Shown one piece after another: positions 39,474 to 55,517 of a stretch of DNA of 64,000 nt. This DNA comes from Candidatus Pacearchaeota archaeon. Its GTDB lineage: Archaea; Nanobdellota; Nanobdellia; Pacearchaeales; GW2011-AR1. Made by a program: the position numbers and the translations under genes. Each line of letters begins with the position of its first letter. Position 1 is the stretch's first letter. The notes under the pieces were generated by a model that was not told the DNA's origin, did not search any database, and saw only the letters and a program-made list of their open reading frames with translations. The DNA lies in NCBI GenBank assembly GCA_019659125.1, contig JAIFVX010000002.1, positions 94,694-158,693 of the forward strand, written 5' to 3'.

Positions 39474-39554
39474 TTAGCAGAAGGGACAGCCCTCGTTATC
39501 CTCTTTCGTTATAGGCTTTTTCTTTTGCTTTTTTTTGCTCTTTTTTTCAGCCAT
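39474..39554 (-). CDS. Putative 26-aa basic micropeptide with C-terminal CPFC
   Basis: MAEKKSKKKQKKKPITKEDNEGCPFC*. TATA (TTTATATA) lies 25-32 nt upstream and the stop is 3 nt before the next ATG. Confidence 0.55.
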   Translation of the reverse strand: MAEKKSKKKQKKKPITKEDNEGCPFC

Positions 39555-39611
39555 ACTTCTTACAGAATTATAGGAAACTATATAAACATTTCTTTGTATT
39601 TTCATGCAGAC

Positions 39612-40964
39612 ATGGGAAAATACGACTTGATTGTTGTCGGGGGTGGTACTGCTGGTTTGAGGACTTCGCTTTATGCTGCAGGTCACGGACACAGCACTGC
39701 ATTGATAGATCCTGGAATTCTAGGAGGGACATGCCTCAACACAGGATGCATTCCCACCAAAAGCATGCTTCATGCATCTCATCTTTTTCACTCCATCCAG
39801 AATGCAAAGATGTTCGGTATTGATGCAAGCGCAAAGATCAATTTCAAGGCACTTATGAAACGCGTACATGACATTGTACAAGATGGACAGGACCATATTG
39901 AGACCAGCATTCACAATAAGAATTTAACCTTGATCAAAGGCAAGGCAACATTCATCTCAAAAGATTCTGTGCAGGTGAATGGACAGACACTCTCAGCAGA
40001 TAAGTTCATCATATGCACTGGAGCAAAGGCACGGGTCGCTCCTGTGAAGGGCTTGGAAAATGTAAAATATATGGTGAGTGATGATGTTCTTGATTTGCAA
40101 TCGCTGCCGAAGTCTATTGCAATCATTGGGGGTGGATATATTGCAGTTGAGTTTGCGACGTTTTTCAGCGAACTAGGAACTAAAGTATACATCCTTGAAC
40201 GGAATCCCCAGATTTTGAAGGATTTAGATGATGACATCATTCAACTTCTCAGTGAGCACTATGTTGAACAAGGCATCTCCCTACTTACACCAAGCGATAT
40301 TGTTGAAGTAGGACAGGAAGGAGATATGAAAAAAATAACATACACTATGGGAAACAAGACACAAACCGTGAAGGTAGAACAGCTGCTCATCGCTACGGGA
40401 AGGGCTCCGAATACATTCAATCTTGGTCTTGATAAAGCTGGTGTTAAAGTAGGAGAGAAAGGTAATATCGAAGTTGAAGATAATTTGCAAACAACGAACA
40501 AGAATATCTATGCCATCGGTGATGTCACGGGAAGGGCTCCCTTTGCTCACGCGGCAAAACGGGAATCTCATATTGCATTAGTCAATGCATTGGAAGGAAA
40601 AAAGGAAACTATGAACTTTGGCCTTGTGCCCTGGGCAATCTTTTCAGAACCAACTATCGGAGGCGTTGGGTTGAGTGAGAAACAAGCTAAAGAAAGAAAA
40701 GTAAATTATGGTACGCTCAAGGCAAACTTCTCAAGAGCGGGAAGGGCAACGGTCATTGGAAACACTCTAGGATTTGCAAAAGTACTCTATGATAAGAAAA
40801 ACAGGAAAATTATCGGAAGCACTCTTATAGGGCCAAGGGCCGATGAATTGATCCATGAATTTGTTGCGCTCATCAATGCAGAAGCAAAGATTGACATCCT
40901 TAACGACATCATTCACATCCATCCCACTTTATCAGAAGTGTTTGAAGCTCTCAAGGAAGCCTAA
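39612..40964 (+). CDS. lpdA: Dihydrolipoamide dehydrogenase-like flavoprotein disulfide reductase (probable PDH E3)
   Basis: GGGTAG, GGTCLNTGCIPTK, GGGYIAVE, IYAIGD, HIHPTLSE. Start moved to ATG 39612. Confidence 0.85.
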   Translation: MGKYDLIVVGGGTAGLRTSLYAAGHGHSTALIDPGILGGTCLNTGCIPTKSMLHASHLFHSIQNAKMFGIDASAKINFKALMKRVHDIVQDGQDHIETSIHNKNLTLIKGKATFISKDSVQVNGQTLSADKFIICTGAKARVAPVKGLENVKYMVSDDVLDLQSLPKSIAIIGGGYIAVEFATFFSELGTKVYILERNPQILKDLDDDIIQLLSEHYVEQGISLLTPSDIVEVGQEGDMKKITYTMGNKTQTVKVEQLLIATGRAPNTFNLGLDKAGVKVGEKGNIEVEDNLQTTNKNIYAIGDVTGRAPFAHAAKRESHIALVNALEGKKETMNFGLVPWAIFSEPTIGGVGLSEKQAKERKVNYGTLKANFSRAGRATVIGNTLGFAKVLYDKKNRKIIGSTLIGPRADELIHEFVALINAEAKIDILNDIIHIHPTLSEVFEALKEA

Positions 40965-42073
40965 AGTTTTACCCTTTTCATCTCTTCTAAGGAAGGAATG
41001 ATCTTCTTTGCGGTCGGGTTCTTTACAGCAGAGGAAATCTTCAATGCAGCATTGTAAAATAACTCTTCATCAAGGTTCTTTATCTTCTCTGCAAGTATCT
41101 TTTTCATAAGGAAAGGGAAGACAAGAACATTATTGACAGGATTATCGAAATCACTTCTTCCTGTTGCAGCTATTACAGCTCCAGCAGCCCTTGCATCATC
41201 AGGAAGTATCTCAGGGTCTGGATTTGAGAGGGCAAAGACAATTGGCTTCTTATCCATTGATTCAATCATTTTTTTGCTGACGAGATTTTTTTCACTTGAA
41301 ACTCCAATGAAGACCTCTGCATTTCTTAGTGCATTTGAAAGATCTCCTCTTATTCTTTTCTGATTGGTAAGAGCTGCAATCTTTTCCTTATAATGATTTA
41401 AATGTGGCCTTCCTTCATAGATAATGCCCTTGCTGTCAGTCACTATAATATGTTTGGCTCCCGCATAACGAAGTAGGTTTGTTATTCCATATCCTGCTGT
41501 TCCTGCACCAGCAATCACAATACTTACTTTCTCTATTCTCTTTCTCACGACTTTCAGAGCATTGAGGAGTGCGGCAAGAGCTGCGATGGCAGTTCCCTGC
41601 TGATCGTCATGAAATACTGGGATTTCCAGTCCTTTCAATCGCTCAAGAATTTCTAGACACTTCGGGGATTCTATATCCTCAAGGTTGATTGCACCAAATG
41701 TAGGAGCGATATTCTTTATGAATGAAATAATTTCTTCTTTATCCTGTGTCTTGATGCAGAGAGGGATTGCGTTCACGTTACCATAGGCCTTGAACAACAT
41801 TGCTTTCCCTTCCATGACGGGAAGTGCTGCCTCAGGACCTTTATTACCGAGACCAAGAATCCTTGAACCATCACACACAATCGCAATAGTGTTTCCTTTT
41901 CCCGTATATTCATATACAGTATCTTTGTTTTTGGCAATTTCCTGCACAATATGAGCAACACCCGGAGTATAGAGGAGTTTTAAGTTGGAATGATTTACAG
42001 GAATCTTTGGATTAACTTCTATCTTACCTTGCAGTCTCTTATGCAACTTTTTTGATTCATCCTCAATAGTCAT
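40961..42073 (-). CDS. NAD(P)-dependent malic enzyme (short prokaryotic type)
   Basis: YTPGVA, ILGLGN, PVMEGKA.LFK, INLEDI..P.C, FHDDQQGTA, FALSNPDPEI, ATGRSD. Confidence 0.92.
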   Translation of the reverse strand: MTIEDESKKLHKRLQGKIEVNPKIPVNHSNLKLLYTPGVAHIVQEIAKNKDTVYEYTGKGNTIAIVCDGSRILGLGNKGPEAALPVMEGKAMLFKAYGNVNAIPLCIKTQDKEEIISFIKNIAPTFGAINLEDIESPKCLEILERLKGLEIPVFHDDQQGTAIAALAALLNALKVVRKRIEKVSIVIAGAGTAGYGITNLLRYAGAKHIIVTDSKGIIYEGRPHLNHYKEKIAALTNQKRIRGDLSNALRNAEVFIGVSSEKNLVSKKMIESMDKKPIVFALSNPDPEILPDDARAAGAVIAATGRSDFDNPVNNVLVFPFLMKKILAEKIKNLDEELFYNAALKISSAVKNPTAKKIIPSLEEMKRVKL

Positions 42074-43437
42074 TTTAACGCCTTGTTCAGCGTCTCTTCA
42101 TCCATGAGATGCTGCTCTAAAATAATTTCTCGAATAGTTTTTCCTTTCATGTATGCCTGTTGGACAACACTTGAGGCCTTCTGATAACCAATGTGAGGAG
42201 TTAGCGCAGTCACTAGGAGGGGATTTTTTTCCACGTAATCCTTAATCTTTCCCTTATGTGCTTTCATTCCATTGATACAATGAAGGGAGAAAATATCAAG
42301 TGCTTTTGTCAAGACTTCTATAGAATGAATGAGAGCATGGGCAGCAAGAGGCATCATGACATTCAACTCGAGCTGTCCGGCTTGTGAACACAAAGTGATA
42401 GCTGTGTCGTTGCTTATTACATAGAATCCAACCATATCTACCATTTCGGCAATGGATGGATTCACTTTTCCAGGCATGATTGAAGAGCCAGGCTGCACTG
42501 CAGGCAATTCAACTTCATCAATTCCTGAAGTGGGACCTGAACTAAGCAGACGTAGATCATTGGCGATCTTTATTAGATCTTCCGCAAGAACTTTCAGGGA
42601 TGAACTGATCGAAGAAATGGTAGAAAGACTTTGCGTTTCTCCAAACAAATTTCCAGGATGAAATTTTGCTCTCGTCATCGCATACAATTCCTTGTACATT
42701 GACTTTCTAAATCGTTCAGGAGCATTCACTGAGGTCCCGACAGCGGTTCCTCCCAAGTTTATCTTCAACAAGTCAGAGTATATTTTTCCTAGTGATTTTC
42801 TATCATTGGCTATTGTGGCTGCATATCCTCCAAACTCCTGACCAAGAGTAAGGGGAACCGCATCACGTAGGTGAGTTCTCCCTGTTTTCTTTATTGATTT
42901 CCATTCTCGCGATTTTTTCTGAAGCGCTTCTTCAACATGGTGTAATGCAGGAAACAATTGCTTAGATATGGCTTGATAGGCTGCGACATGGATTGCAGAG
43001 TGAAAGACATCGTTTGTTGACTGGCCAAGATTGACATGGTCATGAGGATCGATGATTCCGTAAGAACCTCTTGTCTTATGAAGTATTTCCAAAGCTCGAT
43101 TAGCGATCACCTCATTGATGTTCATATGTTCTGAGGTGCCAGCACCTGCCTGGAACACATCCAGGGGAAATTGATCGTTCAGCTTCCCATAAATCACATC
43201 CTCGCATGCACGTACAATTGCGTTCGCTTTGTTCTCGTCAAGCCTCTTTATTCTTTTGTTTGCAATAGCAGCTGCTTTTTTTATCATCGCCAAGGCTTGG
43301 ACAAGCTTCATGGAAAAATGAAGTCCGCTAATAGGGAAATTTTCTAACGCTCTTTGAGTGGCAATACCATAATACACCTGAGAAGGAATCTTCTTTGATC
43401 CCAGATAGTCCTTTTCTACTCTATATCCTCTTTTCAT
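42070..43437 (-). CDS. Class II fumarate hydratase / aspartate ammonia-lyase
   Basis: GSSIMPGKVNP, GRTHLRDAVP, QSTND, GQLELNV. Some motifs look AspA-like (QAGAGTS), but coupling to the malic enzyme favours fumarase. Confidence 0.85.
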   Translation of the reverse strand: MKRGYRVEKDYLGSKKIPSQVYYGIATQRALENFPISGLHFSMKLVQALAMIKKAAAIANKRIKRLDENKANAIVRACEDVIYGKLNDQFPLDVFQAGAGTSEHMNINEVIANRALEILHKTRGSYGIIDPHDHVNLGQSTNDVFHSAIHVAAYQAISKQLFPALHHVEEALQKKSREWKSIKKTGRTHLRDAVPLTLGQEFGGYAATIANDRKSLGKIYSDLLKINLGGTAVGTSVNAPERFRKSMYKELYAMTRAKFHPGNLFGETQSLSTISSISSSLKVLAEDLIKIANDLRLLSSGPTSGIDEVELPAVQPGSSIMPGKVNPSIAEMVDMVGFYVISNDTAITLCSQAGQLELNVMMPLAAHALIHSIEVLTKALDIFSLHCINGMKAHKGKIKDYVEKNPLLVTALTPHIGYQKASSVVQQAYMKGKTIREIILEQHLMDEETLNKALK

Positions 43438-43511
43438 TTTCTAATAAGCCTTAGGGCATATAAATGTCTTTTCCTCATAAGATTTATAACAGATTTGTTC
43501 TTATTGGAGTA

Positions 43512-45230
43512 ATGAAAAAAGAGGAGAGTGATGTTCTCGTCATAGGTTCTGGGGGAGCGGGATTGAGGGCTGCCATTGCATTGCATGATCAAAGAATTCC
43601 TGTCCTTGTCGTAGGGAAGTGCGCAAAACGAGACGCTCATACCATTCTTGCTACAGGAGGCATTAATGCAGCGCTCGGAAACATGGATCCAAAAGATTCA
43701 TGGCAGCTCCATGCTTCAGATACTATTCGAGACGGCGGATACATCAATGATACGAATGCTGTCCTTACTTTGTGTAAGAATGCTCCAGCAGCTGTTCTTG
43801 AGCTTGAGAAATGGGGTGCTCAGTTCCATAAGGAAAAGAATGGACGGATAAGCCAGAGATTCTTTGGAGCTGCCACCTATAGGCGTGCATGTTTTGTTGG
43901 AGATGTTACGGGAAAGTCAATCTTGAATACATTAGTTGATCAGGCAGAAAAAAGAAAGATTCCTTTCAGAAGTGAAGTGTATATTGTTTCTCTTTTAGAG
44001 AAGAATGGAAAAGTTAATGGTGCTGTTGGGCTTGACATGCAAAGGGGGGAATTTGTTGTATTTCATGCAAAGAAAGTTATTCTTGCGACGGGAGGTCACT
44101 CTCGGATGTTTGCTCGATCGTCTTCCCGATTTTGGGAGAACAATGGGGATGGAATCTCACTCGCATACCGTTTGGGAGCTAAATTTATGGATATGGAGAT
44201 GTTTCAGTTCCATCCTACGGGAATGGTCTTTCCTTCTGAAGCAGAAGGAGTACTTGTAACCGAAGCGGTGAGAGGCGAGGGGGGAGTTTTGACTAACACT
44301 AGAGGAGAGCGATTCATGGAACGCTACGATAAGGAAAGAATGGAGTTATCTGCCCGAGATATTGTAGCACGGGCAATCTATAATGAGGTGCAAGAAGGAA
44401 GAGGGACAAACCACGGAGGAGTCTGGCTTGACATCTCTCACAAGCCCAAGTCATATATCTTAAAGAGACTTCCTAAAATGTATAAGCAATTCAAAGAGTA
44501 TGTGGGAATAGACATCTCAAAGGAAAAGATGGAAGTTGCTCCTACTGCCCACTATTCTATGGGTGGCATCTATAGTGATCAGAGAACCGGAAAAACTTCC
44601 ATTCCAAATTTATTTGCGATTGGGGAAGTAACTTCGGGAGTACATGGAGCCAACAGGCTTGGAGGAAACAGTCTTGCTGAGATTGTTGTGTTTGGAAAGA
44701 TTATAGGGGAGTATGTTGCACAGGAAGCAAAAAAAGACTATCTCCTTCCTCTTGATGAGAAAATGATCGCTAGCACAATAGAAGAAGTAGTGTCCATTAC
44801 TCATCAAAAAGGTGATGATCCTATTGCCTTGAAAAAAAACATCCAGAAAATCATGTGGAAGGATTGCGGAGTTGTCAGAGAAGGAAAGAAGATGAAGCAA
44901 GCATTGCGTGAGATATCTTCATTAAAAGATTCTACATTTTCCACAGGAAGGAATTTAAAGATGAATGAGAAACTGATTGCAGCACTTGATGTACGGAACA
45001 TGTTCCCAACATGTGACATGATCTTGCGCAGCGCATTATTCAGAGAAGAAAGTAGGGGCGCACATTACCGTTCGGATTTTCCTGAGACAAAAAAATCGTG
45101 GAAAAAGAATATTATATGTTTTCCTAAGCAGAATAGTATTAAGGTTACATCGCGAGCGATCGTACCTGTTCCGCGAGAGATTTCAAAACATTTTGGAGAC
45201 ACGAATCCATCCCACAAGCTCCTTGAATAG
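43512..45230 (+). CDS. Succinate dehydrogenase/fumarate reductase flavoprotein subunit (no Fe-S or anchor genes nearby)
   Basis: GSGGAG, AHTILATGG, QFHPT, TEAVRGEGG, RDIVAR, HYSMGG, HGANRLGGNSL, ESRGAHYR. TATA spacing supports ATG 43512. Confidence 0.88.
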   Translation: MKKEESDVLVIGSGGAGLRAAIALHDQRIPVLVVGKCAKRDAHTILATGGINAALGNMDPKDSWQLHASDTIRDGGYINDTNAVLTLCKNAPAAVLELEKWGAQFHKEKNGRISQRFFGAATYRRACFVGDVTGKSILNTLVDQAEKRKIPFRSEVYIVSLLEKNGKVNGAVGLDMQRGEFVVFHAKKVILATGGHSRMFARSSSRFWENNGDGISLAYRLGAKFMDMEMFQFHPTGMVFPSEAEGVLVTEAVRGEGGVLTNTRGERFMERYDKERMELSARDIVARAIYNEVQEGRGTNHGGVWLDISHKPKSYILKRLPKMYKQFKEYVGIDISKEKMEVAPTAHYSMGGIYSDQRTGKTSIPNLFAIGEVTSGVHGANRLGGNSLAEIVVFGKIIGEYVAQEAKKDYLLPLDEKMIASTIEEVVSITHQKGDDPIALKKNIQKIMWKDCGVVREGKKMKQALREISSLKDSTFSTGRNLKMNEKLIAALDVRNMFPTCDMILRSALFREESRGAHYRSDFPETKKSWKKNIICFPKQNSIKVTSRAIVPVPREISKHFGDTNPSHKLLE

Positions 45231-46592
45231 CTAGTTTATCACTATAGACTTGATATTAACAAATTCTTTGATGCCGTAATACGAAAGCTCACGACCGACT
45301 CCTGAGTTCTTTATGCCTCCAAAGGGAAGCCTTGGATCTGATTTTACCATGCCATTAATGAACACCATGCCTGCCTCTATCTTTTTTGCAAGCTCCTCGG
45401 CTTTTTTTAAATCTCCTGTCCAAAGACTTGCTCCAAGGCCAAACTGAGTTCTATTCGCCTCTTCGATTGCTTCTTTCTCATCTTTTACATAACTAATTAT
45501 AGCAACTGGGCCGAATGACTCCTCGTTCGCTATTTTCATAGATGGCTTTATGTTGGTAAGAGCTGTTGGCAGGTAATAGTATCCTCTTTCTTCTTTCCTT
45601 TTCCCTCCACAGAGGACCTTTGCCCCTTTTTTTACAGCATCTTTTACTTGCGCATCGAGAGATTCCAGAATGTCTTTTCGCGCGAGAGGCCCTACATCGG
45701 TTATCTGATAGAGAGGGTTTCCTACATTCAACGCCTGCATATGATGAACATAATTTGACTCAAAAGAATCTTTCTTTGACTTTACGACGATAAAGCGCTT
45801 TGCTGCAATACAGCTCTGACCTGCGTTTATCATTCGTGATTGCACGGCAGTCTTGCATGCAAGCACAAAATCAGCATCCTCCAGGATAATGAATGGATCG
45901 CTGCCTCCAAGCTCAAGGACAACTTTCTTTATGTGTTTACCAGCATTCGCTCCTATATTCCTTCCTGCTCCAACACTTCCTGTCAGAGAGACTCCTTGTA
46001 CCAAATTCTTTTCGATAAGATGGGCAGCTATATCGGATGACATCAGTGGAGCATTAAACAGATATTTAGGAAATGACTGCGCGAATAAACTCTCAAGAGC
46101 TTGAGCGCATCCAGGAACATTCGTTGAGTGCTTAAGGATACAGGCATTCCCTGCACACAGTGCTGGAATGGCGTAGCGAAAAACCTGCCAGAATGGGAAG
46201 TTCCATGGCATGATTCCCAAAATTATTCCTAACGGTTCGAATGCAACATAGCTTTTCTTGGCTTCTGTCTTGATTATTTCTGGTTGCAGGAATGCTGGAG
46301 CATTTTGCGCGAAATAATCGCAAAGCCAGGCGCATTTCTCAATCTCTGCTTGAGATTCCTTGATAGGCTTCCCCATTTCATTAGTCATGAGTGTTGCAAG
46401 TTCCGTACTCTTTCTTCTCAGCATGGATGCGAGGGATGCAACGCTGCGCGTTCGCTCCTGTACTGATTTATCTTTCCATGAAAGGAGTGCCTTTCTTGCT
46501 TTCTCCACGATTGCAATTATTTCTTTTTCTGGGGAAAGCGAATAACTCTTGAGTATTTCTTCGGTTGCAGGATTAATAGACGTTATTTTCAT
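45231..46592 (-). CDS. NAD(P)-dependent succinate-semialdehyde dehydrogenase (Sad/GabD1 type)
   Basis: IMPWNFPFWQVFR, LKH, LELGGSDP, NAGQSCIAAKR, EESFGP, SDPRLPFGGIK. Confidence 0.9.
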   Translation of the reverse strand: MKITSINPATEEILKSYSLSPEKEIIAIVEKARKALLSWKDKSVQERTRSVASLASMLRRKSTELATLMTNEMGKPIKESQAEIEKCAWLCDYFAQNAPAFLQPEIIKTEAKKSYVAFEPLGIILGIMPWNFPFWQVFRYAIPALCAGNACILKHSTNVPGCAQALESLFAQSFPKYLFNAPLMSSDIAAHLIEKNLVQGVSLTGSVGAGRNIGANAGKHIKKVVLELGGSDPFIILEDADFVLACKTAVQSRMINAGQSCIAAKRFIVVKSKKDSFESNYVHHMQALNVGNPLYQITDVGPLARKDILESLDAQVKDAVKKGAKVLCGGKRKEERGYYYLPTALTNIKPSMKIANEESFGPVAIISYVKDEKEAIEEANRTQFGLGASLWTGDLKKAEELAKKIEAGMVFINGMVKSDPRLPFGGIKNSGVGRELSYYGIKEFVNIKSIVIN

Positions 46593-47596
46593 TGGCTCAG
46601 TGCTGGAGCAACAGGAAGATTAAGCATACTTAACAAGCCTGGCTTTGCGTTAAGTACTACAGGAATAAGATTGACTGCATGACTTGTGGTAGTGATATTT
46701 CCCGGAGGGACATTGATAGTTTCCACCAATCTTGGGATTCCTTCAATAATAATTCGATTGTAATACTCTTCTTTTGGATCAACACGACCGAGCTCTTCAA
46801 GAGTAATTACTTTCTTCCCATTCTTCATCCCGAAACAGCGATGGTCAAAGCCTGCGACATTTCCCTTCTTGATCTTCATATAGCCTGGAACGGTGATTGG
46901 TTTCTTTGCAGCCACTGGATCTCGTGTTTCAATAATCTTATCTATATCCCAATGGAGGCCGTGTGCCAGCATTGATAATGACTCAGGAAGGCCTATATGT
47001 AATGGTAATTTGCCTTCCTTGACACCTTGTTTAAATTCAGAAACATCCATTCCAATGCCAATATTTTTCTGGATTGCAGGACCAAAAGGCGAGAAGTCAA
47101 TTACTCTTGTAACTTTTATCTCCTTCACATTCTGACAGATGCCTGTCAGGAAGAGAGGCATAAGATCCATAGCAAATCCTGGATTAATTCCAGAACCAAG
47201 GACTGAGACATCATATTTTTTCGCCGTTGCGTCGATTTCATTGCAAAGGGCTGGATATTTGGGGAATGGATAGCCCATCTCCTCAGCAATGGTGATAACG
47301 CTGATTCCTTGCTTTACGGCCCCTTGGATCTGCTCCCATACTTTAGGTACATAGGAAACTGCGGCGTGAAGCATGATATCTGCCTTGGAAGTCCTGAACA
47401 CTTCGTCAGCATTGTCAGAAACTTTGACTCCGACATTCCTTTTTAATCCAAGAACAACACCCAGGTCTTTTCCTTGGTTTTCAGGTTTTCTATCAATAGC
47501 TCCTACAATCTGGAGATCTTTCTTTTCAAGCATGATCTTAGCCATCATGCTGCCCATAGCCCCAAGGCCGAATTGTATAACTCGTATCTTTCCCAT
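46589..47596 (-). CDS. NAD(P)-dependent amine dehydrogenase, 2,4-diaminopentanoate dehydrogenase (Ord)-like
   Basis: QFGLGAMG, TIAEEMGYP, GSGINPGFAMD, SPFGP, HIGLPES. The stop overlaps the SSADH ATG. Confidence 0.8.
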   Translation of the reverse strand: MGKIRVIQFGLGAMGSMMAKIMLEKKDLQIVGAIDRKPENQGKDLGVVLGLKRNVGVKVSDNADEVFRTSKADIMLHAAVSYVPKVWEQIQGAVKQGISVITIAEEMGYPFPKYPALCNEIDATAKKYDVSVLGSGINPGFAMDLMPLFLTGICQNVKEIKVTRVIDFSPFGPAIQKNIGIGMDVSEFKQGVKEGKLPLHIGLPESLSMLAHGLHWDIDKIIETRDPVAAKKPITVPGYMKIKKGNVAGFDHRCFGMKNGKKVITLEELGRVDPKEEYYNRIIIEGIPRLVETINVPPGNITTTSHAVNLIPVVLNAKPGLLSMLNLPVAPALSQ

Positions 47597-47701
47597 CTTT
47601 TTATAGAGAACCATTCCTATGTATATAAAACATTCGTCTCGCAACTTATATAAATCCCTGTGTATTAATAGAGATACGATTCTCGTTGAAAGGGGGTTAT
47701 C

Positions 47702-47968
47702 ATGGCTAAACAAACAAATACCCGTACACGTACACGACCTCGGACTACTACCCGTAGCATGGCTATGTCAAAAGTTCGAGAGATGTCGCCACAGCTAGAG
47801 CAGAAGGCTCGGAAAGCGATGCATATGACTAAGAGAAAATTCCAGACGGCTGAAAAAAGGGTTGAAGGATATGTCAAACGTCACCCTGCCAAAGCCGCGC
47901 TTATTGCCGCCGCGATCGGAGCCGCAATCACTGCCGGAGCAGCTGGAGCATTGAAAAAGAAACGTTAA
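47702..47968 (+). CDS. Small basic tail-anchored protein, ElaB/YqjD (DUF883)-like
   Basis: EGYVKRHPAKAALIAAAIG C-terminal pattern; Arg/Thr-rich N-terminus; GGGGGT just upstream of the ATG. Confidence 0.62.
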   Translation: MAKQTNTRTRTRPRTTTRSMAMSKVREMSPQLEQKARKAMHMTKRKFQTAEKRVEGYVKRHPAKAALIAAAIGAAITAGAAGALKKKR

Positions 47969-49125
47969 TCTTTAAAAAACGCATCCAGGTCTGACTTTAT
48001 GCCTAACAGTTTGTAAGCGATGTGTTTCGCAACCATCGTGCAGACGACTTGCGAACTAGCCCCGCCAACACTAATTTTATTTTCTTTTTTCTCAATGACG
48101 GGAATATAATCTTCAGTAACTCCAAACGTACCAGACCACACATATTCTATTTCAATTGATAGTTGAGGGAACAATTTTTTAAGAAATTCCTTTATCTTTT
48201 CTACATGAGGGCGGTGTGGGTTAGTGTTCTTTTGCTCTTTTTGGACAATTCTATCCCCAAACCCTAGCAGAATCCTACTATCTTTCGTTAATTTAAGATA
48301 ATGGTATCTGATCTTCGTGTCCCAAACGAGTTTGTTTTCTACCATATTTATGGATTCTCGCTGGGCATGAGTGAGTGGTTTTGTGATAATAATTGTTGAT
48401 TTCCTATTCTTGACTTTTTTATTGCGGATATCGACGTCAATGGCGATAATTATTTTCTTGAATTTTATAGATCCATGAGGAGTTTCCGCACTATCTTTTT
48501 GCAATTTTATGAGCGGTGTATGCTCATAGACCGCGACACCTTTTTTCTCTATGACTTGTGAAAGCCCTTGAGTGTATTTTAAAGGATTTACAGACAGTCC
48601 ATGATCGAATGAAAGAATAGCATGCTTAAAGAGAGGGGTATTAATCTGCTTCTTTAACTCATCTCCTGAAAGCCAGCGTGTTGTTTTTTCTATTTTTTTC
48701 TCAATTTCATATTCCTTGAGAAGGAAACGATGAGATGGATAAGGAAGCATCCCATATACTGTATGCAAATTTTCGGCATCACAATCTATCTTCTCTTTTT
48801 TCGCAATATTTTTCATGAGATTAAGGCCTTCATGATTGCCTTTCCAAAAAATTATTCCTTTTTTCATGCCGTGCTTCTTGACTATAGAATCGAGGTCGAG
48901 CTCTCCTTTTAATGTCAAGAATCCTGCTGACTTTCCTGTTGCTCCCGATGCTATTGTGTTTTTCTCGATGAGAACTATGTTCTTAGCTTGATGGGTTGCA
49001 AGGAAATATGCCAAAGAAACACCGAGAACTCCACCTCCGACAATGAGATAGTCACATTCGATGTCTTTCTTCAAAGGAGCTCTGACCTTATAGCCTGGAT
49101 TCTTCCAGAACACCTCATATTTCAT
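47965..49125 (-). CDS. FAD-dependent amine oxidoreductase (DadA/PuuB-like)
   Basis: IVGGGVLG, IEK..IASGATGKSAG, VNPLKY, YEHTP, YVWSG. Confidence 0.78.
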   Translation of the reverse strand: MKYEVFWKNPGYKVRAPLKKDIECDYLIVGGGVLGVSLAYFLATHQAKNIVLIEKNTIASGATGKSAGFLTLKGELDLDSIVKKHGMKKGIIFWKGNHEGLNLMKNIAKKEKIDCDAENLHTVYGMLPYPSHRFLLKEYEIEKKIEKTTRWLSGDELKKQINTPLFKHAILSFDHGLSVNPLKYTQGLSQVIEKKGVAVYEHTPLIKLQKDSAETPHGSIKFKKIIIAIDVDIRNKKVKNRKSTIIITKPLTHAQRESINMVENKLVWDTKIRYHYLKLTKDSRILLGFGDRIVQKEQKNTNPHRPHVEKIKEFLKKLFPQLSIEIEYVWSGTFGVTEDYIPVIEKKENKISVGGASSQVVCTMVAKHIAYKLLGIKSDLDAFFKD

Positions 49126-49195: not shown

Positions 49196-50350
49196 ATGAG
49201 GTTCGACTTTGTTGTTCTAGGTGCTACAGGGCTGCAGGGAAAAATAGCGTCCAAGGACCTTCTTGAACGTGGGTTTTCCGTCCTGATGTGTGGGCGTGAT
49301 GAAAGCAGAATTGAGCACTTGCTTAAGAGATATAAGAAGACAAAATTCTCCTATGTGGATATCCGTGACGAGGCTAAGGCCGTAGATATTGTCAAGAAGT
49401 CTGGAGCAACAGTTGTTGTCAATTGTGTCGAGGGTGATTGGAACCTTGCTATTCTCCAGATCTGCATCAAGGCAGGTGTAAACTGCGTCGATCTTGGATC
49501 TGAGATATGGATGACACGGAAACAATTCGCTTTAGGAAGTATCTTACGGAAAAAAGGTCTCGTCCATATAACAGGATGTGGATCTGTACCTGGAGTGGGG
49601 AACGTGATGCTTCGATATGCAGCGGAGAAATTTGATAGCATCAAGACAATTGAAGTCGGATTTGCCTGGAGCTCGAATATACAGAAATTCGTCGTTCCTT
49701 TCTCCATACAAAGCATCATTGAGGAATTTACTGATCCTGCAACCAATATCGAGAACAGGAAATTTGTGAAAATCACTCCTATGAGCTCTGTTAAGGAAGC
49801 CAGAGACTCTGTTGTGGGAAGGCAGGAGCGATTCTATGCACGCCACCCGGAAACATACACCTTCTATCATTACTTTAAGAAGAAAGGAGTGAAAAATGTC
49901 AGGTTTTCTGCTGAATTTCCCCCTCACTCGTTTGATAAGATAGAATCATTCATCAAATTGGGATTTGGAAGCGCTCTTCCTATTGACATTGATGGAAAGC
50001 CAGTATTGCCTATCAATTTTTTAACGGAGCTCTTGAAACGCCTTGACATTCCAGAAAACTACACTGAGAAAGAGGATCTCTGGGTGACGTTAGAGGGAAG
50101 GAGCAAGGGGAAAAAGAAGTTTACGCGAATGCAATGCGTTGTAAAAACTATTGATGGCTGGGAGGATGCCGGATGCAACATTGATACTGGTATCTCTGCC
50201 AGCATTATGGCTCAGCTTATTCATAGGGGGAGTATCAAAACGCCTGGAAGCTATGCCCCTGAGGCCATCGTCCCTCCACAAGAATTTTTTAGGGAGTTAC
50301 GAAAAAGGGAGATGATTGTCTACGAGAATGGAAGGATGATTAACCAGTAA
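49196..50350 (+). CDS. Saccharopine dehydrogenase-like oxidoreductase, paralog 1
   Basis: LGATGLQG, VVNC, VDLG, GCGSVPG, PFS, RHPE, APEAIVP. Confidence 0.85.
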   Translation: MRFDFVVLGATGLQGKIASKDLLERGFSVLMCGRDESRIEHLLKRYKKTKFSYVDIRDEAKAVDIVKKSGATVVVNCVEGDWNLAILQICIKAGVNCVDLGSEIWMTRKQFALGSILRKKGLVHITGCGSVPGVGNVMLRYAAEKFDSIKTIEVGFAWSSNIQKFVVPFSIQSIIEEFTDPATNIENRKFVKITPMSSVKEARDSVVGRQERFYARHPETYTFYHYFKKKGVKNVRFSAEFPPHSFDKIESFIKLGFGSALPIDIDGKPVLPINFLTELLKRLDIPENYTEKEDLWVTLEGRSKGKKKFTRMQCVVKTIDGWEDAGCNIDTGISASIMAQLIHRGSIKTPGSYAPEAIVPPQEFFRELRKREMIVYENGRMINQ

Positions 50351-51508
50351 GTGCTTCTTTTCGTTAATACGCCTGCCATTATCATAAATATGAATGCCTC
50401 GGTTGTCTAGCTCTTGGAAAAAGACAGGGCAGGGGACAACAGCTTCAGGACCATATACACCTGTCTGAGTTATTAATCTAGTATGAAGCATTTGCGATAT
50501 GATCGAGATTGTCCTTCCCGTGTTAACATTGCTTCCTGATTTTTCCCATCCTTTCAGTGTCCGCACAATGCAGTCCATCTGGCGGAATAATGGTTTCTTG
50601 TTCTTCTTTCCCCAGATTCTTACCCAAAGATTTTCAACTTCTGTATATCCTGGAGGAAATCGTAGTCTCTTCAATACCTGTGTGGTAAAGCTTGCAGGCT
50701 TAATGCTTATACCGTCCACTTCAAGCGCTTCTTCAGAACTGAATCCAAGCTCCATAAGCATGTTGATGACCTTCAATGAATGTTCCGGAAAACCAGCCAT
50801 ATAATGGAGATTCTTTAGGCCTTTGTATTTGAAATATTTGGCGAAGGTGAATGCCTCCGAATGGACAATGCAATGCACTGTCTGCTTGCCTATCTCTTTG
50901 AACATGTAGGTCGCCATGCAATTCATTCTATCGGCTTTTACGAGCTTTCCATTACGAAGAATAATGGGAGCTGTGTTAAACTCGTTGAATATACTCTTAA
51001 TGGAATAGGGTACAACAAAATCCTTGATATTGGAATCCCATGCGAAACCTAAATCAATAGTGTCAACACTGTCAAATTCATTGATTGCATGTGCAGCCAT
51101 AACGTTTGTAATTCCTGGAGTTGAACCACACCCTGTAATATTGATGATTCCTCTCTTCCGGAAATCCTGATCAAGCTTGAACTGCTGTATGGTAATGTCA
51201 TTAAGCCCTCCGAGATCAGTACATGATCTTCCTGCAACAAGGCATGCTTTCATGATAGGAACATTATAGATAAGTTCTGAACAGTTGACAACTACTTTAG
51301 CTCCGGAGCGAAGTATAGCTGCAAGGATCTCTTCCTGCTTTTTAAGATCCACTCTCATGAATGAGGCACGCTTATTCTTCAGCATATCCTGGACTGCTGA
51401 AGAATCCCTGCCTGCAAGGACAATTCTATGACCACACTCAAGTAAATCTCTTGCACAAATCCTTCCTTGTTGCCCTGTTCCTCCAAAAACTATAAAATCA
51501 CATACCAT
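50297..51508 (-). CDS. Saccharopine dehydrogenase-like oxidoreductase, paralog 2
   Basis: FGGTGQQG, VVNC, TDLGG, GCGSTPG, PYS, VHSE, GPEAVVP. Confidence 0.85.
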   Translation of the reverse strand: MVCDFIVFGGTGQQGRICARDLLECGHRIVLAGRDSSAVQDMLKNKRASFMRVDLKKQEEILAAILRSGAKVVVNCSELIYNVPIMKACLVAGRSCTDLGGLNDITIQQFKLDQDFRKRGIINITGCGSTPGITNVMAAHAINEFDSVDTIDLGFAWDSNIKDFVVPYSIKSIFNEFNTAPIILRNGKLVKADRMNCMATYMFKEIGKQTVHCIVHSEAFTFAKYFKYKGLKNLHYMAGFPEHSLKVINMLMELGFSSEEALEVDGISIKPASFTTQVLKRLRFPPGYTEVENLWVRIWGKKNKKPLFRQMDCIVRTLKGWEKSGSNVNTGRTISIISQMLHTRLITQTGVYGPEAVVPCPVFFQELDNRGIHIYDNGRRINEKKHLLVNHPSILVDNHLPFS

Positions 51509-52251
51509 TACAATTCTCTTTTGTTTTCAAAAACTTTGATACCTCTTCTCTTTAATTCCCTGAAGAATAGGATGGGATTTATAATTGTTTCTGGTGGAAA
51601 AGCTCCTTTCTTCTCAATGGTAGGAATCATCTGAGCAATGATGGAGCACGGAACGGCTGTATCAATGACTCCCGCAGGGTATTTTCCGTCCGACTTTGTA
51701 AGAGCAGACATGATGAGTTTTTCATCAAATGCAACCCTCAATAACTCTTCATCTTTGATAGTGACCTTGGAAGGAATGAATTGATCCATGACTTTTGCAG
51801 TCATATCAATGATTGATGTATTTTTACCGTCAACATTTAGCTCTTCCCTTGATGTTAGACCAAGGTTAATGAGTGTTTTTATTACAGCATTGAATTCTTC
51901 TGGAAATGTGACTCTAAATTCACAGTTTTTTAGTCCGTTTTTCTTAAATGAGCTAGGAAGAGTAGCCAATTCTGAGTGCAAGCTATAGAATCCTCTCATC
52001 TTCCCAAACGAACCGAAATTGTATTCCTTTACACCCTCTCCCGGCTTCGCAAAGAATAATTTTCCTTGTCTATAGACTGCAGGAGCCTTTGTGTACTCAT
52101 CAATCAATGTCTTGAAGCTATAGGGAAGAACAAATGGTTGATTGTAGTGCGTGGAATCCCTGTCAGCGAAGGTGATATCAATAGAATGGAAGTGATGTAT
52201 CTTTTGCGCTCCATAGGCAGCCATAACGTTTGTAATTCCTGGAGTTGAACC
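51093..52251. repeat. Perfect 35-nt direct repeat at 51093-51127 and 52217-52251
   Basis: GCAGCCATAACGTTTGTAATTCCTGGAGTTGAACC is identical in paralogs 2 and 3. Confidence 0.9.
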
Positions 52252-52632
52252 GCATCCTAACACGGCAACTCTATTTATTTTTCTAAATTGGTCATTAAGC
52301 TTAAGCTGCCTTCGTGTTTCGTGAAATAGTCCTCCTAGATCAACATAATGTGTCTTTGCCTGCAAACAGCATTTCATGATATGTATATTGAAATAATACT
52401 GTACGCAGTTGACGACAACATCCGCTCCTTTTACGAGCAAAGTAAGTTGAGATTGATTTTCTATGTCCACATATCGTGCTGTAATGCGGGATGAATGAAA
52501 TAACTTAGCATAACTCTGTGCTTTTTCTTTATCTCTTCCAGCAATGATGATATCATCTTTTGTTGTTCGAAAAAGATCCCTGACAACTGCTTTCCCTATA
52601 ATGCCATAGCCACCTAGAACTACATATTTCAT
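51508..52632 (-). CDS. Saccharopine dehydrogenase-like oxidoreductase, paralog 3
   Basis: LGGYGIIG, VVNC, VDLGG, GCGSTPG, PYS, LHSE, PPE. Confidence 0.85.
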   Translation of the reverse strand: MKYVVLGGYGIIGKAVVRDLFRTTKDDIIIAGRDKEKAQSYAKLFHSSRITARYVDIENQSQLTLLVKGADVVVNCVQYYFNIHIMKCCLQAKTHYVDLGGLFHETRRQLKLNDQFRKINRVAVLGCGSTPGITNVMAAYGAQKIHHFHSIDITFADRDSTHYNQPFVLPYSFKTLIDEYTKAPAVYRQGKLFFAKPGEGVKEYNFGSFGKMRGFYSLHSELATLPSSFKKNGLKNCEFRVTFPEEFNAVIKTLINLGLTSREELNVDGKNTSIIDMTAKVMDQFIPSKVTIKDEELLRVAFDEKLIMSALTKSDGKYPAGVIDTAVPCSIIAQMIPTIEKKGAFPPETIINPILFFRELKRRGIKVFENKREL

Positions 52633-55477: not shown

Positions 55478-55517
55478 CTTTTTTATCTAAGAGTGGGTTA
55501 ATTTATATTCGTTGTGG

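What the first reader, a model, noticed from the sequence alone, without database searches (positions are those of the whole stretch)
45231..47596. Ord-like amine dehydrogenase coupled to SSADH: candidate NAD(P)-dependent GABA dehydrogenase
Seen: the Ord-like gene's TGA overlaps the SSADH ATG (46589-46592), and no ornithine aminomutase or AKP thiolase genes (oraSE, ortAB) are in the window. Known: Ord and related native amine dehydrogenases deaminate the C4 amine of 2,4-diaminopentanoate or 4-aminopentanoate, giving ketones. Inference: the same chemistry on 4-aminobutyrate gives succinate semialdehyde, the substrate of the coupled gene, so this enzyme would replace GABA transaminase. I do not know of a characterised enzyme in this role. 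It could also be a useful biocatalyst.
Basis: partly seen in the sequence, partly recalled or inferred. Interest (0 to 1): 0.85.

Follow-up and report, generated by a model that had tools for sequence, protein, structure and literature searches.

The report
Candidate GABA dehydrogenase beside SSADH
A tiny archaeon that seems to have no transaminases carries a divergent relative of an ornithine-fermentation amine dehydrogenase fused in an operon with succinate-semialdehyde dehydrogenase, which most likely strips the amine from GABA directly with NAD(P)+, an enzyme activity not yet described.

Summary
On the minus strand, a 335-aa Ord-like gene (46589..47596) ends in ATGA on the start of a 453-aa SSADH-type aldehyde dehydrogenase (45231..46592). 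No oraSE/ortAB genes were found in the 809-kb genome, which is 85.6% complete.

The Ord-like protein belongs to a separate DPANN clade (76 sequences), sister to canonical 2,4-diaminopentanoate dehydrogenases. It keeps the catalytic Glu, the Arg (P9) and His (P15) read as carboxylate binders, and Phe (P12). It has replaced nine residues invariant or near-invariant in canonical Ord, including Asn at P10 and the HPQQ motif.

Context points to GABA:
- SSADH adjacency recurs in 3 of 6 clade loci.
- 4 of 6 clade loci also carry an aminobutyraldehyde-dehydrogenase-like gene and saccharopine-dehydrogenase-like paralogs.
- In related archaea, the SSADH orthologue sits beside another candidate succinate-semialdehyde source: an acetolactate-synthase-type TPP enzyme (15 of 24 genomes) or class-III aminotransferases (3 of 24).
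- The four genomes with the Ord-like gene have no class-III aminotransferase.

I read this as non-orthologous displacement of GABA transaminase. It is plausible at about 45% and biochemically untested. The main rivals are an L-2,4-diaminobutyrate dehydrogenase or a different step of the same amine pathway.

The parts
46589..47596 (-). Ord-like native amine dehydrogenase (OrdL, P0001, 335 aa), proposed as a 4-aminobutyrate (omega-amino acid) dehydrogenase (deaminating)
   Evidence: DAP_DH_C 161 bits; Ord NF040740 333 bits, below the cut-off of 400; best solved relatives 7xdu (256 bits) and AmDH4 6g1h/6g1m (247-248 bits); separate clade of 76 sequences with its own conserved residues.
45231..46592 (-). 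Succinate-semialdehyde dehydrogenase of the Sad/YneI/cyanobacterial type (P0002, 453 aa)
   Evidence: W130, N131, W135, R139, E227, C261 and S418 are present. Residue roles come from passages of PMC7510979.
46589..46592 (-). ATGA overlap of the OrdL stop codon and the SSADH start codon
   Evidence: The same 4-base overlap occurs in L007 and L087. Base rate in the window is 10 of 36 same-strand junctions.
47622..47654 (-). Two TATA-like boxes (TTTATATA 47654..47647 and TTTTATATA 47630..47622) in the 368-base gap upstream of OrdL; possible own promoter of the two-gene unit
   Evidence: Read directly. This is an inference; no promoter tool for archaea was available.
47965..49125 (-). DAO-family FAD oxidoreductase. 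Its weak best hit is L-pipecolate oxidase AmaA (104 bits, cut-off 600)
   Evidence: Found next to OrdL only in the window and in L007.
49196..50350 (+). Saccharopine-dehydrogenase-like paralog Sac1, probably not part of the module
   Evidence: Relatives at 48-62% identity stand alone, away from this cluster, in 7 other genomes (L212-L216, L219, L220).
50297..51508 (-). Saccharopine/carboxyspermidine-dehydrogenase-like paralog Sac2
   Evidence: Found beside OrdL or SSADH in L007, L088, L210 and L195.
51508..52632 (-). Saccharopine/carboxyspermidine-dehydrogenase-like paralog Sac3 (distant hit to lysine 6-dehydrogenase PH1688, 41 bits)
   Evidence: Sac3-like genes also sit with ABALDH plus class-III aminotransferases in L186, L217 and L218.
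52629..54068 (-). Aminoaldehyde dehydrogenase, closest to aminobutyraldehyde dehydrogenase (PRK13473 586 bits, cut-off 615)
   Evidence: Conserved in L007, L088, L210 and L195.
43464..45230 (+). Stand-alone Sdh/Frd/TfrA-type flavoprotein, convergent on the SSADH gene
   Evidence: TfrA 620 bits, cut-off 718. His present in the motif RDAHT. No SdhB-type Fer2_3 domain found in the genome.
42070..43437 (-). Class-II fumarase/aspartase-family lyase, overlapping the malic enzyme gene by 4 bases
   Evidence: PRK12273 aspartate ammonia-lyase subfamily 594 bits, above its cut-off of 510; aspA 510 (cut-off 681); fumC_II 487 (cut-off 665).
40961..42073 (-). Malic enzyme
   Evidence: A malic enzyme also lies next to OrdL in L088.

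Best explanation
OrdL is an NAD(P)+-dependent amine dehydrogenase that has moved from 2,4-diaminopentanoate to an unbranched 4-amino acid, most likely 4-aminobutyrate (GABA).

Proposed mechanism, by analogy with the family:
- Arg164 and His200 hold the carboxylate.
- Glu105 holds the amine next to the nicotinamide.
- Hydride transfer gives the imine, which hydrolyses to succinate semialdehyde and ammonia.

This reaction is thermodynamically uphill. The co-translated SSADH makes it run by oxidising the aldehyde irreversibly to succinate.

The pair is the last part of a conserved module. In that module, saccharopine-dehydrogenase-like enzymes and an aminobutyraldehyde-dehydrogenase-like enzyme would make GABA from di- or polyamines. 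OrdL then takes the place that a class-III (GABA) aminotransferase holds in the corresponding clusters of related archaea. This fits an organism in which no class I/II or class III aminotransferase and no glutamate dehydrogenase was found.

Shown: gene structure, family, clade, residue pattern, synteny and co-occurrence. Inferred: substrate, direction, pathway order and cofactor. Asp35, Arg36 and Lys37 at positions R1-R3 suggest NAD or dual specificity.
For: 1. Not a canonical Ord.
- NF040740 scores 333 bits against a cut-off of 400.
- In a FastTree of 231 family members, a clade of 76 (70 database proteins, the window and 5 loci; support 0.98) is sister to the group holding 52 loci that have ortA/ortB/oraS/oraE next door (joint clade of 135, support 1.0).
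- 53 of 163 family loci have Ort/Ora neighbours. None of the DPANN clade does.
- Residues at 94-100% in those 52 (N166, Q179, G199, H268, P269, Q270, Q271, D280, E297, window numbering) are I, I, L, E, L, G, R, N, P in the clade.

2. Carboxylate site kept.
- E105/E106, R164 (100%), F171 and H200 (93%) are retained.
- PMC11164908 (sections 7, 8, 10 and passages read) takes Arg at P9 and His at P15 as signs of a terminal carboxylate.
- My mapping through the CfusAmDH alignment puts I166 at P10, F171 at P12, I175 at P13 and H200 at the Tyr202 position.
- Same Arg/His/Glu spacing as for 2,4-diaminopentanoate implies amine carbon to carboxylate of C4 to C1, as in GABA.

3. The partner requires an aldehyde, so the amine must be terminal.
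- P0002's 7 best solved relatives are (putative) SSADHs.
- It keeps W135, R139 and S418 (SSA carboxylate) and N131, E227 and C261.
- No position separates the SSADHs of OrdL genomes from those beside the TPP enzyme.

4. Synteny, across 6 distinct clade loci.
- OrdL-SSADH with the 4-base overlap occurs in 3 (window, L007 at 81% identity, L087 at 69%).
- ABALDH-like plus Sac2/Sac3 occur in 4 (window, L007, L088, L210).
- In the sixth (G193), SSADH-Sac2-Sac3-ABALDH lies on another contig.

5. Displacement pattern, across the 24 of 401 sampled phylum genomes with an SSADH orthologue at 47% identity or more. The neighbour is:
- an acetolactate-synthase-type TPP enzyme in 15;
- ABALDH plus a class-III aminotransferase in 3;
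- OrdL in 1;
- Sac2-Sac3-ABALDH in 1;
- none of these in 4, two of them at contig ends.

6. Missing aminotransferases.
- Aminotran_3 was found in 0 of the 4 distinct genomes with OrdL, against 79 of 401 over the cut-off in the sample and 10 of the 24 SSADH genomes.
- The own genome also gave no PF00155, no true PF00208, and no TPP-enzyme or aminotransferase hit by tblastn.

7. Downstream genes for succinate to acetate lie in the same 22 kb: flavoprotein, lyase, malic enzyme, PDH-type E1/E2/E3 and ADP-forming acetyl-CoA synthetase alpha.
Against: - No assay has been done; the substrate is inferred.
- Only 6 distinct clade loci with context could be read, out of about 70 clade proteins seen. Some of those 6 are kin.
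- In G193 and G278, OrdL and SSADH are not adjacent. In L088, no SSADH lies within 6 kb.
- The 4-base overlap is common in this genome (10 of 36 junctions).
- The clade gained a conserved acidic residue (E268, 97%), R271 and H306, whose roles are unknown. An acidic residue in the pocket would suit a second amino group better than GABA.
- I could not obtain coordinates, so only P3, P9, P10, P12, P13 and P15 are placed in the pocket. The other changed residues are not.
- The aminotransferases of the comparison clusters are not typical GabT. One is GntE/HemL-like, one is closest to diaminobutyrate transaminases (393 bits, cut-off 402), and one is a lysine 6-transaminase (615 bits, above 521). The displaced reaction may therefore not be GABA transamination.
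- The Sac proteins belong to a family that includes lysine 6-dehydrogenase, which performs the same terminal-amine chemistry, so they could be the GABA step.
- The lyase passes NCBIfam's aspartate ammonia-lyase subfamily model.
- No SdhB was found for the flavoprotein, so the succinate-to-fumarate step is not secured.
- That the TPP enzyme is a 2-oxoglutarate decarboxylase is my inference. NCBIfam names it acetolactate synthase, and its best solved relatives are AlsS.
- Absence of aminotransferases rests on genomes 85.6-98% complete.
Confidence: 0.45

Rival explanations
1. OrdL is an L-2,4-diaminobutyrate dehydrogenase. It would deaminate C4 of diaminobutyrate to aspartate 4-semialdehyde. The SSADH-like enzyme would oxidise that to aspartate, and aspartate would be taken on by the aspartase-like lyase. 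This would be the dehydrogenase counterpart of the DoeD/DoeC steps of ectoine breakdown (DoeD/DoeC recalled, not from a call).
For: - Diaminobutyrate is 2,4-diaminopentanoate without the methyl group, so it has the same C4-to-C1 spacing for R164, H200 and E105.
- The newly conserved E268 (97%) could hold a 2-ammonium group of the opposite configuration.
- One aminotransferase in the comparison cluster L186 is closest to diaminobutyrate-2-oxoglutarate transaminases (TIGR00709 393 bits, cut-off 402).
- The Sac proteins' nearest solved relatives include carboxyspermidine dehydrogenase, which uses aspartate semialdehyde.
- The lyase exceeds the cut-off of the aspartate ammonia-lyase subfamily model.
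Against: - P0002 shows no residue difference from orthologues that sit beside the TPP enzyme, and it keeps the SSA-binding W135, R139 and S418.
- The pocket position P10 became hydrophobic (N to I/V in 96%), and two acidic residues invariant in canonical Ord (D280, E297) were lost. That does not suggest an extra amino group.
- No DoeA/DoeB-like gene or other obvious diaminobutyrate source is in the clusters.
- An ABALDH-like gene in 4 of 6 loci has no role in this route.
- The lyase is translationally coupled to malic enzyme, which fits a fumarase better.
Confidence: 0.17
2. OrdL belongs to the same amine-catabolic module but catalyses a different step or acts on a different chain length. It could deaminate a diamine to the aminoaldehyde used by the ABALDH-like enzyme, or deaminate 5-aminovalerate or beta-alanine. 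In that case a Sac paralog (lysine-6-dehydrogenase-like family) or the DAO flavoprotein would make succinate semialdehyde.
For: - OrdL sits beside Sac2-Sac3-ABALDH without SSADH in L088 and L210.
- Sac3 has a distant hit to lysine 6-dehydrogenase PH1688 (41 bits), an enzyme of the same terminal-amine chemistry.
- A lysine 6-transaminase (615 bits, above 521) sits next to the Sac3-like gene in L186.
- The DAO gene's weak best hit is pipecolate oxidase.
- Native amine dehydrogenases accept neutral aldehydes (PMC11164908, sections read).
Against: - R164 is 100% and H200 is 93% conserved, as in the carboxylate-binding groups.
- The OrdL-SSADH overlap is conserved in 3 loci.
- Sac3-like genes co-occur with aminotransferases in L186, L217 and L218, so Sac3 is not what replaces them.
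- DAO is present only in the window and L007.
- Sac/ABALDH/SSADH modules without OrdL always have aminotransferases in the loci I read (L186, L217, L218).
Confidence: 0.2
3. OrdL is an ordinary 2,4-diaminopentanoate dehydrogenase of ornithine fermentation, and the SSADH adjacency is chance.
For: Best family hits are Ord and DAP_DH_C. It is 42-45% identical to true Ord genes. It is the sister clade of canonical Ord. P9 Arg, P12 Phe and P15 His match group G2.
Against: - It scores below the Ord equivalog cut-off (333 bits against 400).
- Nine residues at 94-100% in canonical Ord are replaced.
- No Ort/Ora/Orr genes are in the genome or beside any of the 6 clade loci, whereas 53 of 163 family loci have them.
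- The SSADH, Sac and ABALDH context recurs.
Confidence: 0.03
4. The enzyme works in the reductive direction as a biosynthetic aminating enzyme, for example succinate semialdehyde or aspartate semialdehyde plus ammonia giving GABA or diaminobutyrate for polyamine-type products made by the Sac proteins.
For: - The equilibrium of amine dehydrogenases favours amination (established knowledge).
- The Sac proteins resemble carboxy(nor)spermidine dehydrogenases.
- The genome lacks transaminases that would otherwise make such amines.
Against: - Two aldehyde-oxidising dehydrogenases in the module would destroy the aldehyde substrates.
- No Orn/Arg/DAP-type decarboxylase (PF02784), needed for carboxyspermidine routes, was found.
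- Catabolic genes down to acetate lie alongside.
Confidence: 0.05

Closest known systems
2,4-diaminopentanoate dehydrogenase (Ord; nat-AmDH group G2; e.g. PDB 7xdu, and AmDH4 of Petrotoga mobilis 6g1h/6g1m)
   Same: Same fold and family (DapB_N + DAP_DH_C). E=4e-75 to 7xdu. Catalytic Glu (P3), Arg (P9), Phe (P12) and His (P15) are retained. Sister clade in the tree.
   Different: - Below the NCBIfam equivalog cut-off.
- The G2 residues N166 (P10), Q179, G199, H268-P-Q-Q271, D280 and E297 are all replaced.
- No ortAB/oraSE neighbours; SSADH, ABALDH and Sac neighbours instead.
- The predicted product is an aldehyde, not a ketone.
GABA transaminase + SSADH (GabT/PuuE with GabD/Sad) of the GABA shunt and putrescine pathways
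   Same: Same proposed net step (GABA to succinate semialdehyde to succinate). Same kind of gene pairing with SSADH and with an aminobutyraldehyde dehydrogenase. Related archaea have ABALDH-SSADH-aminotransferase clusters.
   Different: No PLP enzyme and no 2-oxoglutarate/glutamate partner. Ammonia would be released directly and NAD(P)H made. The two proteins are unrelated.
L-lysine 6-dehydrogenase (EC 1.4.1.18; e.g. PH1688, PDB 3abi)
   Same: NAD+-dependent oxidative deamination of a terminal CH2-NH2 to an aldehyde, as the known alternative to a class-III transaminase (lysine 6-transaminase). EC number and role are recalled.
   Different: Different family (saccharopine-reductase-like). That family is represented here by Sac1-3, not by OrdL.
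nat-AmDH group G1 (Arg at P12; substrate unknown according to PMC11164908)
   Same: Another Ord-like group with the Arg P9 / His P15 carboxylate site and no ornithine-fermentation context.
   Different: G1 has Arg-Arg where OrdL has Phe-Gly (positions 171-172). It forms the outgroup in my tree and has other neighbours.

Membership tests
Native amine dehydrogenase / Ord-like family (Pfam DAP_DH_C + DapB_N) | N-terminal Rossmann domain with GxGxxG and C-terminal DAP_DH_C domain, above Pfam cut-offs | tested here: met
   DAP_DH_C 161.3 bits (cut-off 23.3) and DapB_N 34.9 bits (cut-off 25.6). G10, G12 and G15 are conserved.
Native amine dehydrogenase / Ord-like family | Catalytic glutamate at P3 (E102 of AmDH4) | tested here: met
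   E105 aligns with AmDH4 E102 and CfusAmDH E108. It is 97% conserved in the clade. Its role comes from passages of PMC9325545 and PMC11164908.
2,4-diaminopentanoate dehydrogenase (NCBIfam NF040740 equivalog; nat-AmDH group G2) | Score at or above the curated equivalog cut-off (400 bits) | tested here: not met
   333.3 bits.
2,4-diaminopentanoate dehydrogenase (G2) | G2 pocket signature: Arg P9, Phe P12 and His P15, plus highly conserved remaining positions | tested here: inconclusive
   R164, F171 and H200 are met. Asn at P10 is Ile, Val at P13 is Ile, and seven further residues at 100% in the 52 ort-linked sequences are replaced. The full P1-P21 list is in supplements I could not open.
2,4-diaminopentanoate dehydrogenase (G2) | Ornithine-fermentation context (ortA, ortB, oraS, oraE, orr) in the locus or genome | tested here: not met
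   (own genome, 85.6% complete); 0 of 6 clade loci, against 53 of 163 family loci.
Succinate-semialdehyde dehydrogenase (Sad/YneI/cyanobacterial type), for P0002 | ALDH catalytic Cys, Glu and Asn | tested here: met
   C261, E227 and N131, aligned to Cys262, Glu228 and Asn131 of the cyanobacterial enzyme.
Succinate-semialdehyde dehydrogenase, for P0002 | Residues around the SSA carboxylate (Arg139, Trp135, Ser419 of PDB 3VZ3) | tested here: met
   R139, W135 and S418. Conserved as R/K, W and S/T in 21 orthologues. Roles come from passages of PMC7510979.
Succinate-semialdehyde dehydrogenase, for P0002 | Score above an NCBIfam SSADH equivalog cut-off | tested here: not met
   NF006915 507 bits (cut-off 730) and NF010575 455 bits (cut-off 855).
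GABA dehydrogenase (deaminating, NAD(P)+) | Measured oxidation of GABA to succinate semialdehyde; no described family to compare with | not testable with these tools
   Search of the paper library for four phrasings found 4 plant papers; I saw only their titles and abstract starts, none of which is about such an enzyme. That no EC entry exists is recalled.

The most novel reading that the evidence does not exclude
A transaminase-free route from di- or polyamines through GABA to succinate and on to acetate in genome-reduced DPANN archaea. In it, both omega-transaminase steps of the classical putrescine/GABA pathway are replaced by NAD(P)-linked amine dehydrogenases. OrdL would be the first GABA dehydrogenase (deaminating), pulled by a co-translated SSADH. 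The Sac2/Sac3 pair would be the diamine/polyamine-side dehydrogenase.
Probability: 0.35. Interest if true: 0.8.

Novelty: new variant of a known kind. Interest (0 to 1): 0.66.

Why it matters
If OrdL oxidises GABA, it would add an enzyme activity with no described example. The step from GABA to succinate semialdehyde is currently assigned to PLP transaminases.

It would show how an organism without a transaminase network, and without a glutamate/2-oxoglutarate shuttle, can still use amines as carbon, nitrogen and reducing power.

It would give DPANN archaea, usually seen as metabolically dependent, a self-contained energy-yielding amine pathway.

For biocatalysis, the clade is a natural scaffold for reductive amination of omega-oxo acids with ammonia. 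Possible products are GABA and perhaps other omega-amino acids, which are nylon monomers.

The work also sharpens the map of the native amine dehydrogenase family. At least one clade that looks like group G2 by its P9/P12/P15 residues is unlikely to be a 2,4-diaminopentanoate dehydrogenase.

Tried and rejected
- Fused forms: a search for OrdL-containing proteins of 588-2000 aa found none at E<=1e-20. The tool notes this is weak evidence.
- Physical complex: complex prediction with the SSADH alignment A2 and the OrdL alignment A1 returned 'no answer' (score 0.00). This is evidence neither for nor against binding.
- Mutant lookup: searching for the AmDH4 carboxylate-site mutants I recalled (R161M etc.) found only unrelated papers. 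That AmDH4 N135, R161, N163 and H264 form the carboxylate site is therefore recalled, not checked.
- Mayol 2019: the paper (DOI 10.1038/s41929-019-0249-z) is not held.
- P1-P21 list: the full list, the NetSyn context clusters and the lists of tested enzymes of PMC11164908 are in supplements, which are closed. I cannot say whether that study modelled or assayed a member of this clade, or saw its SSADH context.
- DPANN literature: a search for DPANN plus polyamine, putrescine and GABA gave nothing relevant in the 12 titles listed.
- Protein atlas: a search with Sac2 gave only generic saccharopine-dehydrogenase clusters.
- L088 neighbours: Pfam on the genes upstream of OrdL in L088 gave RtcB, PIN, SIMPL and enolase, with no transporter or pathway gene.
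- Structure prediction: I did not run a structure prediction of OrdL. The tools return no coordinates, so it could not place E268, R271 or H306 relative to the pocket.
- Tally caveat: the Aminotran_3 tally includes the unpublished genomes G244, G322 and G333, and the E<=1e-60 ALDH tally includes G333. None of these is among the 24 SSADH-orthologue genomes or the OrdL genomes.
- Rows dropped:
  - The tree used 231 sequences after removing identical sequences and database proteins of 300 aa or fewer.
  - The junction count left out two nested ORFs and one open-ended duplicate from the list.
  - In one search, the SSADH of L191 was hidden by a longer antisense ORF. It was located.

Full report
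**What is there.** The window belongs to an 808,890-base, 5-contig genome that is 85.6% complete. The closest named homologues of its proteins come from Pacearchaeota, Woesearchaeota and Nanoarchaeia, that is DPANN archaea.

On the minus strand, a 335-aa gene (47596..46589) and a 453-aa gene (46592..45231) share the bases ATGA. The first is an Ord-like native amine dehydrogenase. It matches Pfam DAP_DH_C at 161 bits and NCBIfam Ord at 333 bits, below that model's cut-off of 400. Its best solved relatives are 7xdu at 256 bits and AmDH4 (6g1h/6g1m) at 247-248 bits.

The second is an aldehyde dehydrogenase whose 7 best solved relatives are all named (putative) succinate-semialdehyde dehydrogenases, at 396-420 bits.

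The overlap itself is ordinary in this compact genome: 10 of 36 same-strand junctions have it. A 368-base gap with two TATA-like boxes precedes the pair. This suggests, but does not show, that the pair has its own promoter.

**OrdL is not a canonical Ord.** I collected 160 family loci from genome and metagenome contigs and 4 from relatives of the genome. I used the textbook ornithine operon of Natronincola (L039: ord-ortA-ortB-oraS-oraE-oraF-orr) as the reference.

Of 163 loci with a full-length homologue, 53 have Ort/Ora neighbours, and none of these is from the DPANN clade. In a tree of 231 sequences, the window's protein lies in a clade of 76 (support 0.98). That clade is sister to the ort-linked group (52 sequences), and the two join with support 1.0. 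The remaining sequences, mostly Bathyarchaeia, carry Arg-Arg at positions 171-172. This matches group G1 as described in PMC11164908 (paper sections 7, 8, 10 and passages read).

Against the 52 ort-linked sequences, the clade keeps these residues:
- E105/E106 (catalytic Glu, P3);
- N138;
- F141;
- R164 (P9, 100%);
- F171 (P12);
- H200 (P15, 93%).

It replaces N166, Q179, G199, H268, P269, Q270, Q271, D280 and E297 (each at 100% in the ort-linked set) by I, I, L, E, L, G, R, N and P. It also has its own conserved E268 (97%), R271 (87%) and H306 (96%).

Through the alignment to CfusAmDH, I place I166 at P10 (the residue that stacks on the substrate), I175 at P13 and H200 at the Tyr202 position. 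The paper reads Arg P9 and His P15 as the site for a terminal carboxylate.

The clade thus looks built for a carboxylate at the same distance from the reacting carbon as in 2,4-diaminopentanoate. Its pocket is more hydrophobic and probably tighter: L168F, C250F, G199L, V175I. It lacks the polar residues that are invariant in true Ord.

**The partner.** P0002 keeps the catalytic N131, E227 and C261. It also keeps W135, R139 and S418, the residues that lie at the carboxyl group of succinate semialdehyde in the cyanobacterial enzyme. Mutation of the corresponding residues in the Cyanothece enzyme cce4228 reduced substrate affinity (passages of PMC7510979).

An ALDH partner implies that OrdL's product is an aldehyde. 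The amine must then sit on a terminal carbon, and 2,4-diaminopentanoate and 4-aminopentanoate are excluded as the coupled substrate.

**Comparative context.** Six distinct loci of the clade could be read.
- OrdL-SSADH with the same 4-base overlap occurs in the window, in L007 (81% identity, whole cluster syntenic) and in L087 (69%; a 2.9-kb contig).
- An aminobutyraldehyde-dehydrogenase-like gene (586 bits to PRK13473, cut-off 615) plus Sac2 and Sac3 lie in the window, L007, L088 (62%) and L210/G278 (60%).
- In G193 (58%), OrdL stands alone, but SSADH-Sac2-Sac3-ABALDH lies on another contig.

In a sample of 401 genomes of the phylum, the clade occurs in 3, and all 3 have the SSADH orthologue. 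That orthologue occurs in 24 of 401. Its neighbours in those 24 genomes are as follows.

| Neighbour of the SSADH orthologue | Genomes (of 24) |
|---|---|
| TPP enzyme of the acetolactate-synthase type | 15 |
| ABALDH-like gene plus class-III aminotransferase | 3 |
| OrdL | 1 |
| Sac2-Sac3-ABALDH | 1 |
| None of these (two at contig ends) | 4 |

I read the TPP enzyme as the counterpart of the cyanobacterial 2-oxoglutarate decarboxylase that feeds SSADH (PMC10418658, passages). NCBIfam calls it acetolactate synthase, and its best solved relatives are AlsS, so this reading is an inference.

The gene next to SSADH is thus, again and again, a plausible maker of succinate semialdehyde, and OrdL is one of three alternatives.

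Class-III aminotransferases are over the cut-off in 79 of 401 genomes and in 10 of the 24 SSADH genomes. They occur in none of the 4 distinct OrdL genomes. The own genome also gave no class I/II aminotransferase, no glutamate dehydrogenase (the only hit is a weak one inside the malic enzyme), and no TPP enzyme of that type.

Modules of ABALDH, a Sac3-like gene and aminotransferases recur in L186, L217 and L218. What differs between the two module types is therefore aminotransferases on one side and OrdL plus Sac2 on the other.

**Mechanism proposed.** GABA is bound by R164 and H200 at the carboxylate and by E105 at the amine. Hydride passes to NAD(P)+. The imine hydrolyses to succinate semialdehyde and ammonia, and SSADH removes the aldehyde.

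The coupling makes thermodynamic sense, because oxidative deamination by such enzymes is unfavourable. In ornithine fermentation, the product of Ord is likewise pulled by the thiolase (established knowledge).

Asp35, Arg36 and Lys37 at the cofactor positions R1-R3 suggest NAD or dual specificity under the rules of PMC11164908 section 10.

The same 22 kb also encodes a stand-alone Sdh/Frd-type flavoprotein, a fumarase/aspartase-family lyase overlapping a malic enzyme, a PDH-type complex with lipoate ligase, and the alpha subunit of an ADP-forming acetyl-CoA synthetase. These would take succinate to acetate with ATP gain. That chain is inferred, and no SdhB was found.

**What speaks against it, and the rivals.**
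- Nothing has been assayed.
- The new acidic residue E268 could mean a second amino group on the substrate.
- L-2,4-diaminobutyrate has the same spacing as GABA.
- One aminotransferase of the comparison clusters is closest to diaminobutyrate transaminases, and another is a lysine 6-transaminase.
- The lyase passes an aspartate ammonia-lyase subfamily model.

The diaminobutyrate route to aspartate semialdehyde and aspartate gets about 17%. Against it:
- P0002 is indistinguishable in its pocket from the orthologues next to the TPP enzyme.
- P10 became hydrophobic.
- The ABALDH-like gene would be idle.

A different step or chain length within the same module gets about 20%, with a Sac paralog doing the GABA step. 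The Sac family includes lysine 6-dehydrogenase. A canonical Ord gets about 3%, and a biosynthetic direction about 5%.

**Novelty.** A search of the paper library for four phrasings of 'GABA dehydrogenase' returned 4 plant papers; I saw only their titles and abstract starts, and none of these is about such an enzyme. I recall no EC entry.

PMC11164908 treats G2 as uniformly 2,4-diaminopentanoate dehydrogenases, and its context analysis found nothing clear for G1. Whether it saw this clade is in supplements I could not open.

I rate this as a new variant of a known kind. The enzyme belongs to a known family but has a predicted new substrate and a new physiological role.

Noticed in passing
Loci of the Arg-Arg (positions 171-172) group, e.g. 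L109:7051-7824, L099:8515-9468, L104:7850-8587, L100:7058-10896: This group matches nat-AmDH group G1, whose substrate the literature calls unknown. Among its 95 loci, genes within 3.5 kb include LamB/YcsF in 26, CT_A_B in 22 and CT_C_D in 21 (the three parts of 5-oxoprolinase PxpABC), and hydantoinase/oxoprolinase A and B in 6-7. MoaE occurs in 35, a Fer4+Pyr_redox_2 protein in 31 and an FlpD/HdrA-like protein in 25. Glutamate has the same amine-carbon-to-distal-carboxylate spacing as 2,4-diaminopentanoate, with a carboxylate in place of the methyl. A lead worth testing is therefore 5-oxoproline to glutamate to 2-oxoglutarate.
   Followed up: partly
window 43464-45230 (+): An Sdh/Frd/TfrA-type flavoprotein (588 aa; His present in the motif RDAHT) stands alone. 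No SdhB-type Fer2_3 domain was found anywhere in the 85.6%-complete genome. Its electron partner and direction are unexplained.
   Followed up: partly
window 42070-43437 (-) and 40961-42073 (-): The class-II lyase scores above the cut-off of NCBIfam's aspartate ammonia-lyase subfamily model (594 bits against 510) but below both the aspA and fumC equivalogs. It overlaps the malic enzyme gene by 4 bases. Whether it is a fumarase or an aspartase is undecided.
   Followed up: partly
whole genome G000: No class I/II aminotransferase (PF00155), class III aminotransferase (PF00202), ELFV glutamate dehydrogenase (PF00208) or Orn/Arg/DAP decarboxylase (PF02784) was found. The organism may lack the usual amino-group shuttle altogether. 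Other aminotransferase classes were not searched.
   Followed up: partly
window 54107-60685 (-): This stretch holds an ADP-forming acetyl-CoA synthetase alpha subunit, two half-size MgtE-domain genes, and a complete 2-oxoacid dehydrogenase set (E2, E1 beta, lipoate-protein ligase, E1 alpha of the PDH type at 470 bits against a cut-off of 411). Lpd lies at 39525-40964. This is an unusually rich catabolic island for an 0.8-Mb DPANN genome.
   Followed up: no
L187:9047-12105 and 14 other loci (L189-L191, L193, L194, L197, L199-L204, L206, L207): In 15 of 24 DPANN genomes, the SSADH orthologue is adjacent to a roughly 550-aa acetolactate-synthase-type TPP enzyme. This arrangement resembles the cyanobacterial 2-oxoglutarate decarboxylase/SSADH bypass of the TCA cycle.
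   Followed up: partly
window 49196-50350 (+); L212-L216, L219, L220: Sac1-like genes (48-62% identity) occur as stand-alone genes in 7 other DPANN genomes. This paralog probably has a housekeeping role separate from the catabolic module.
   Followed up: no
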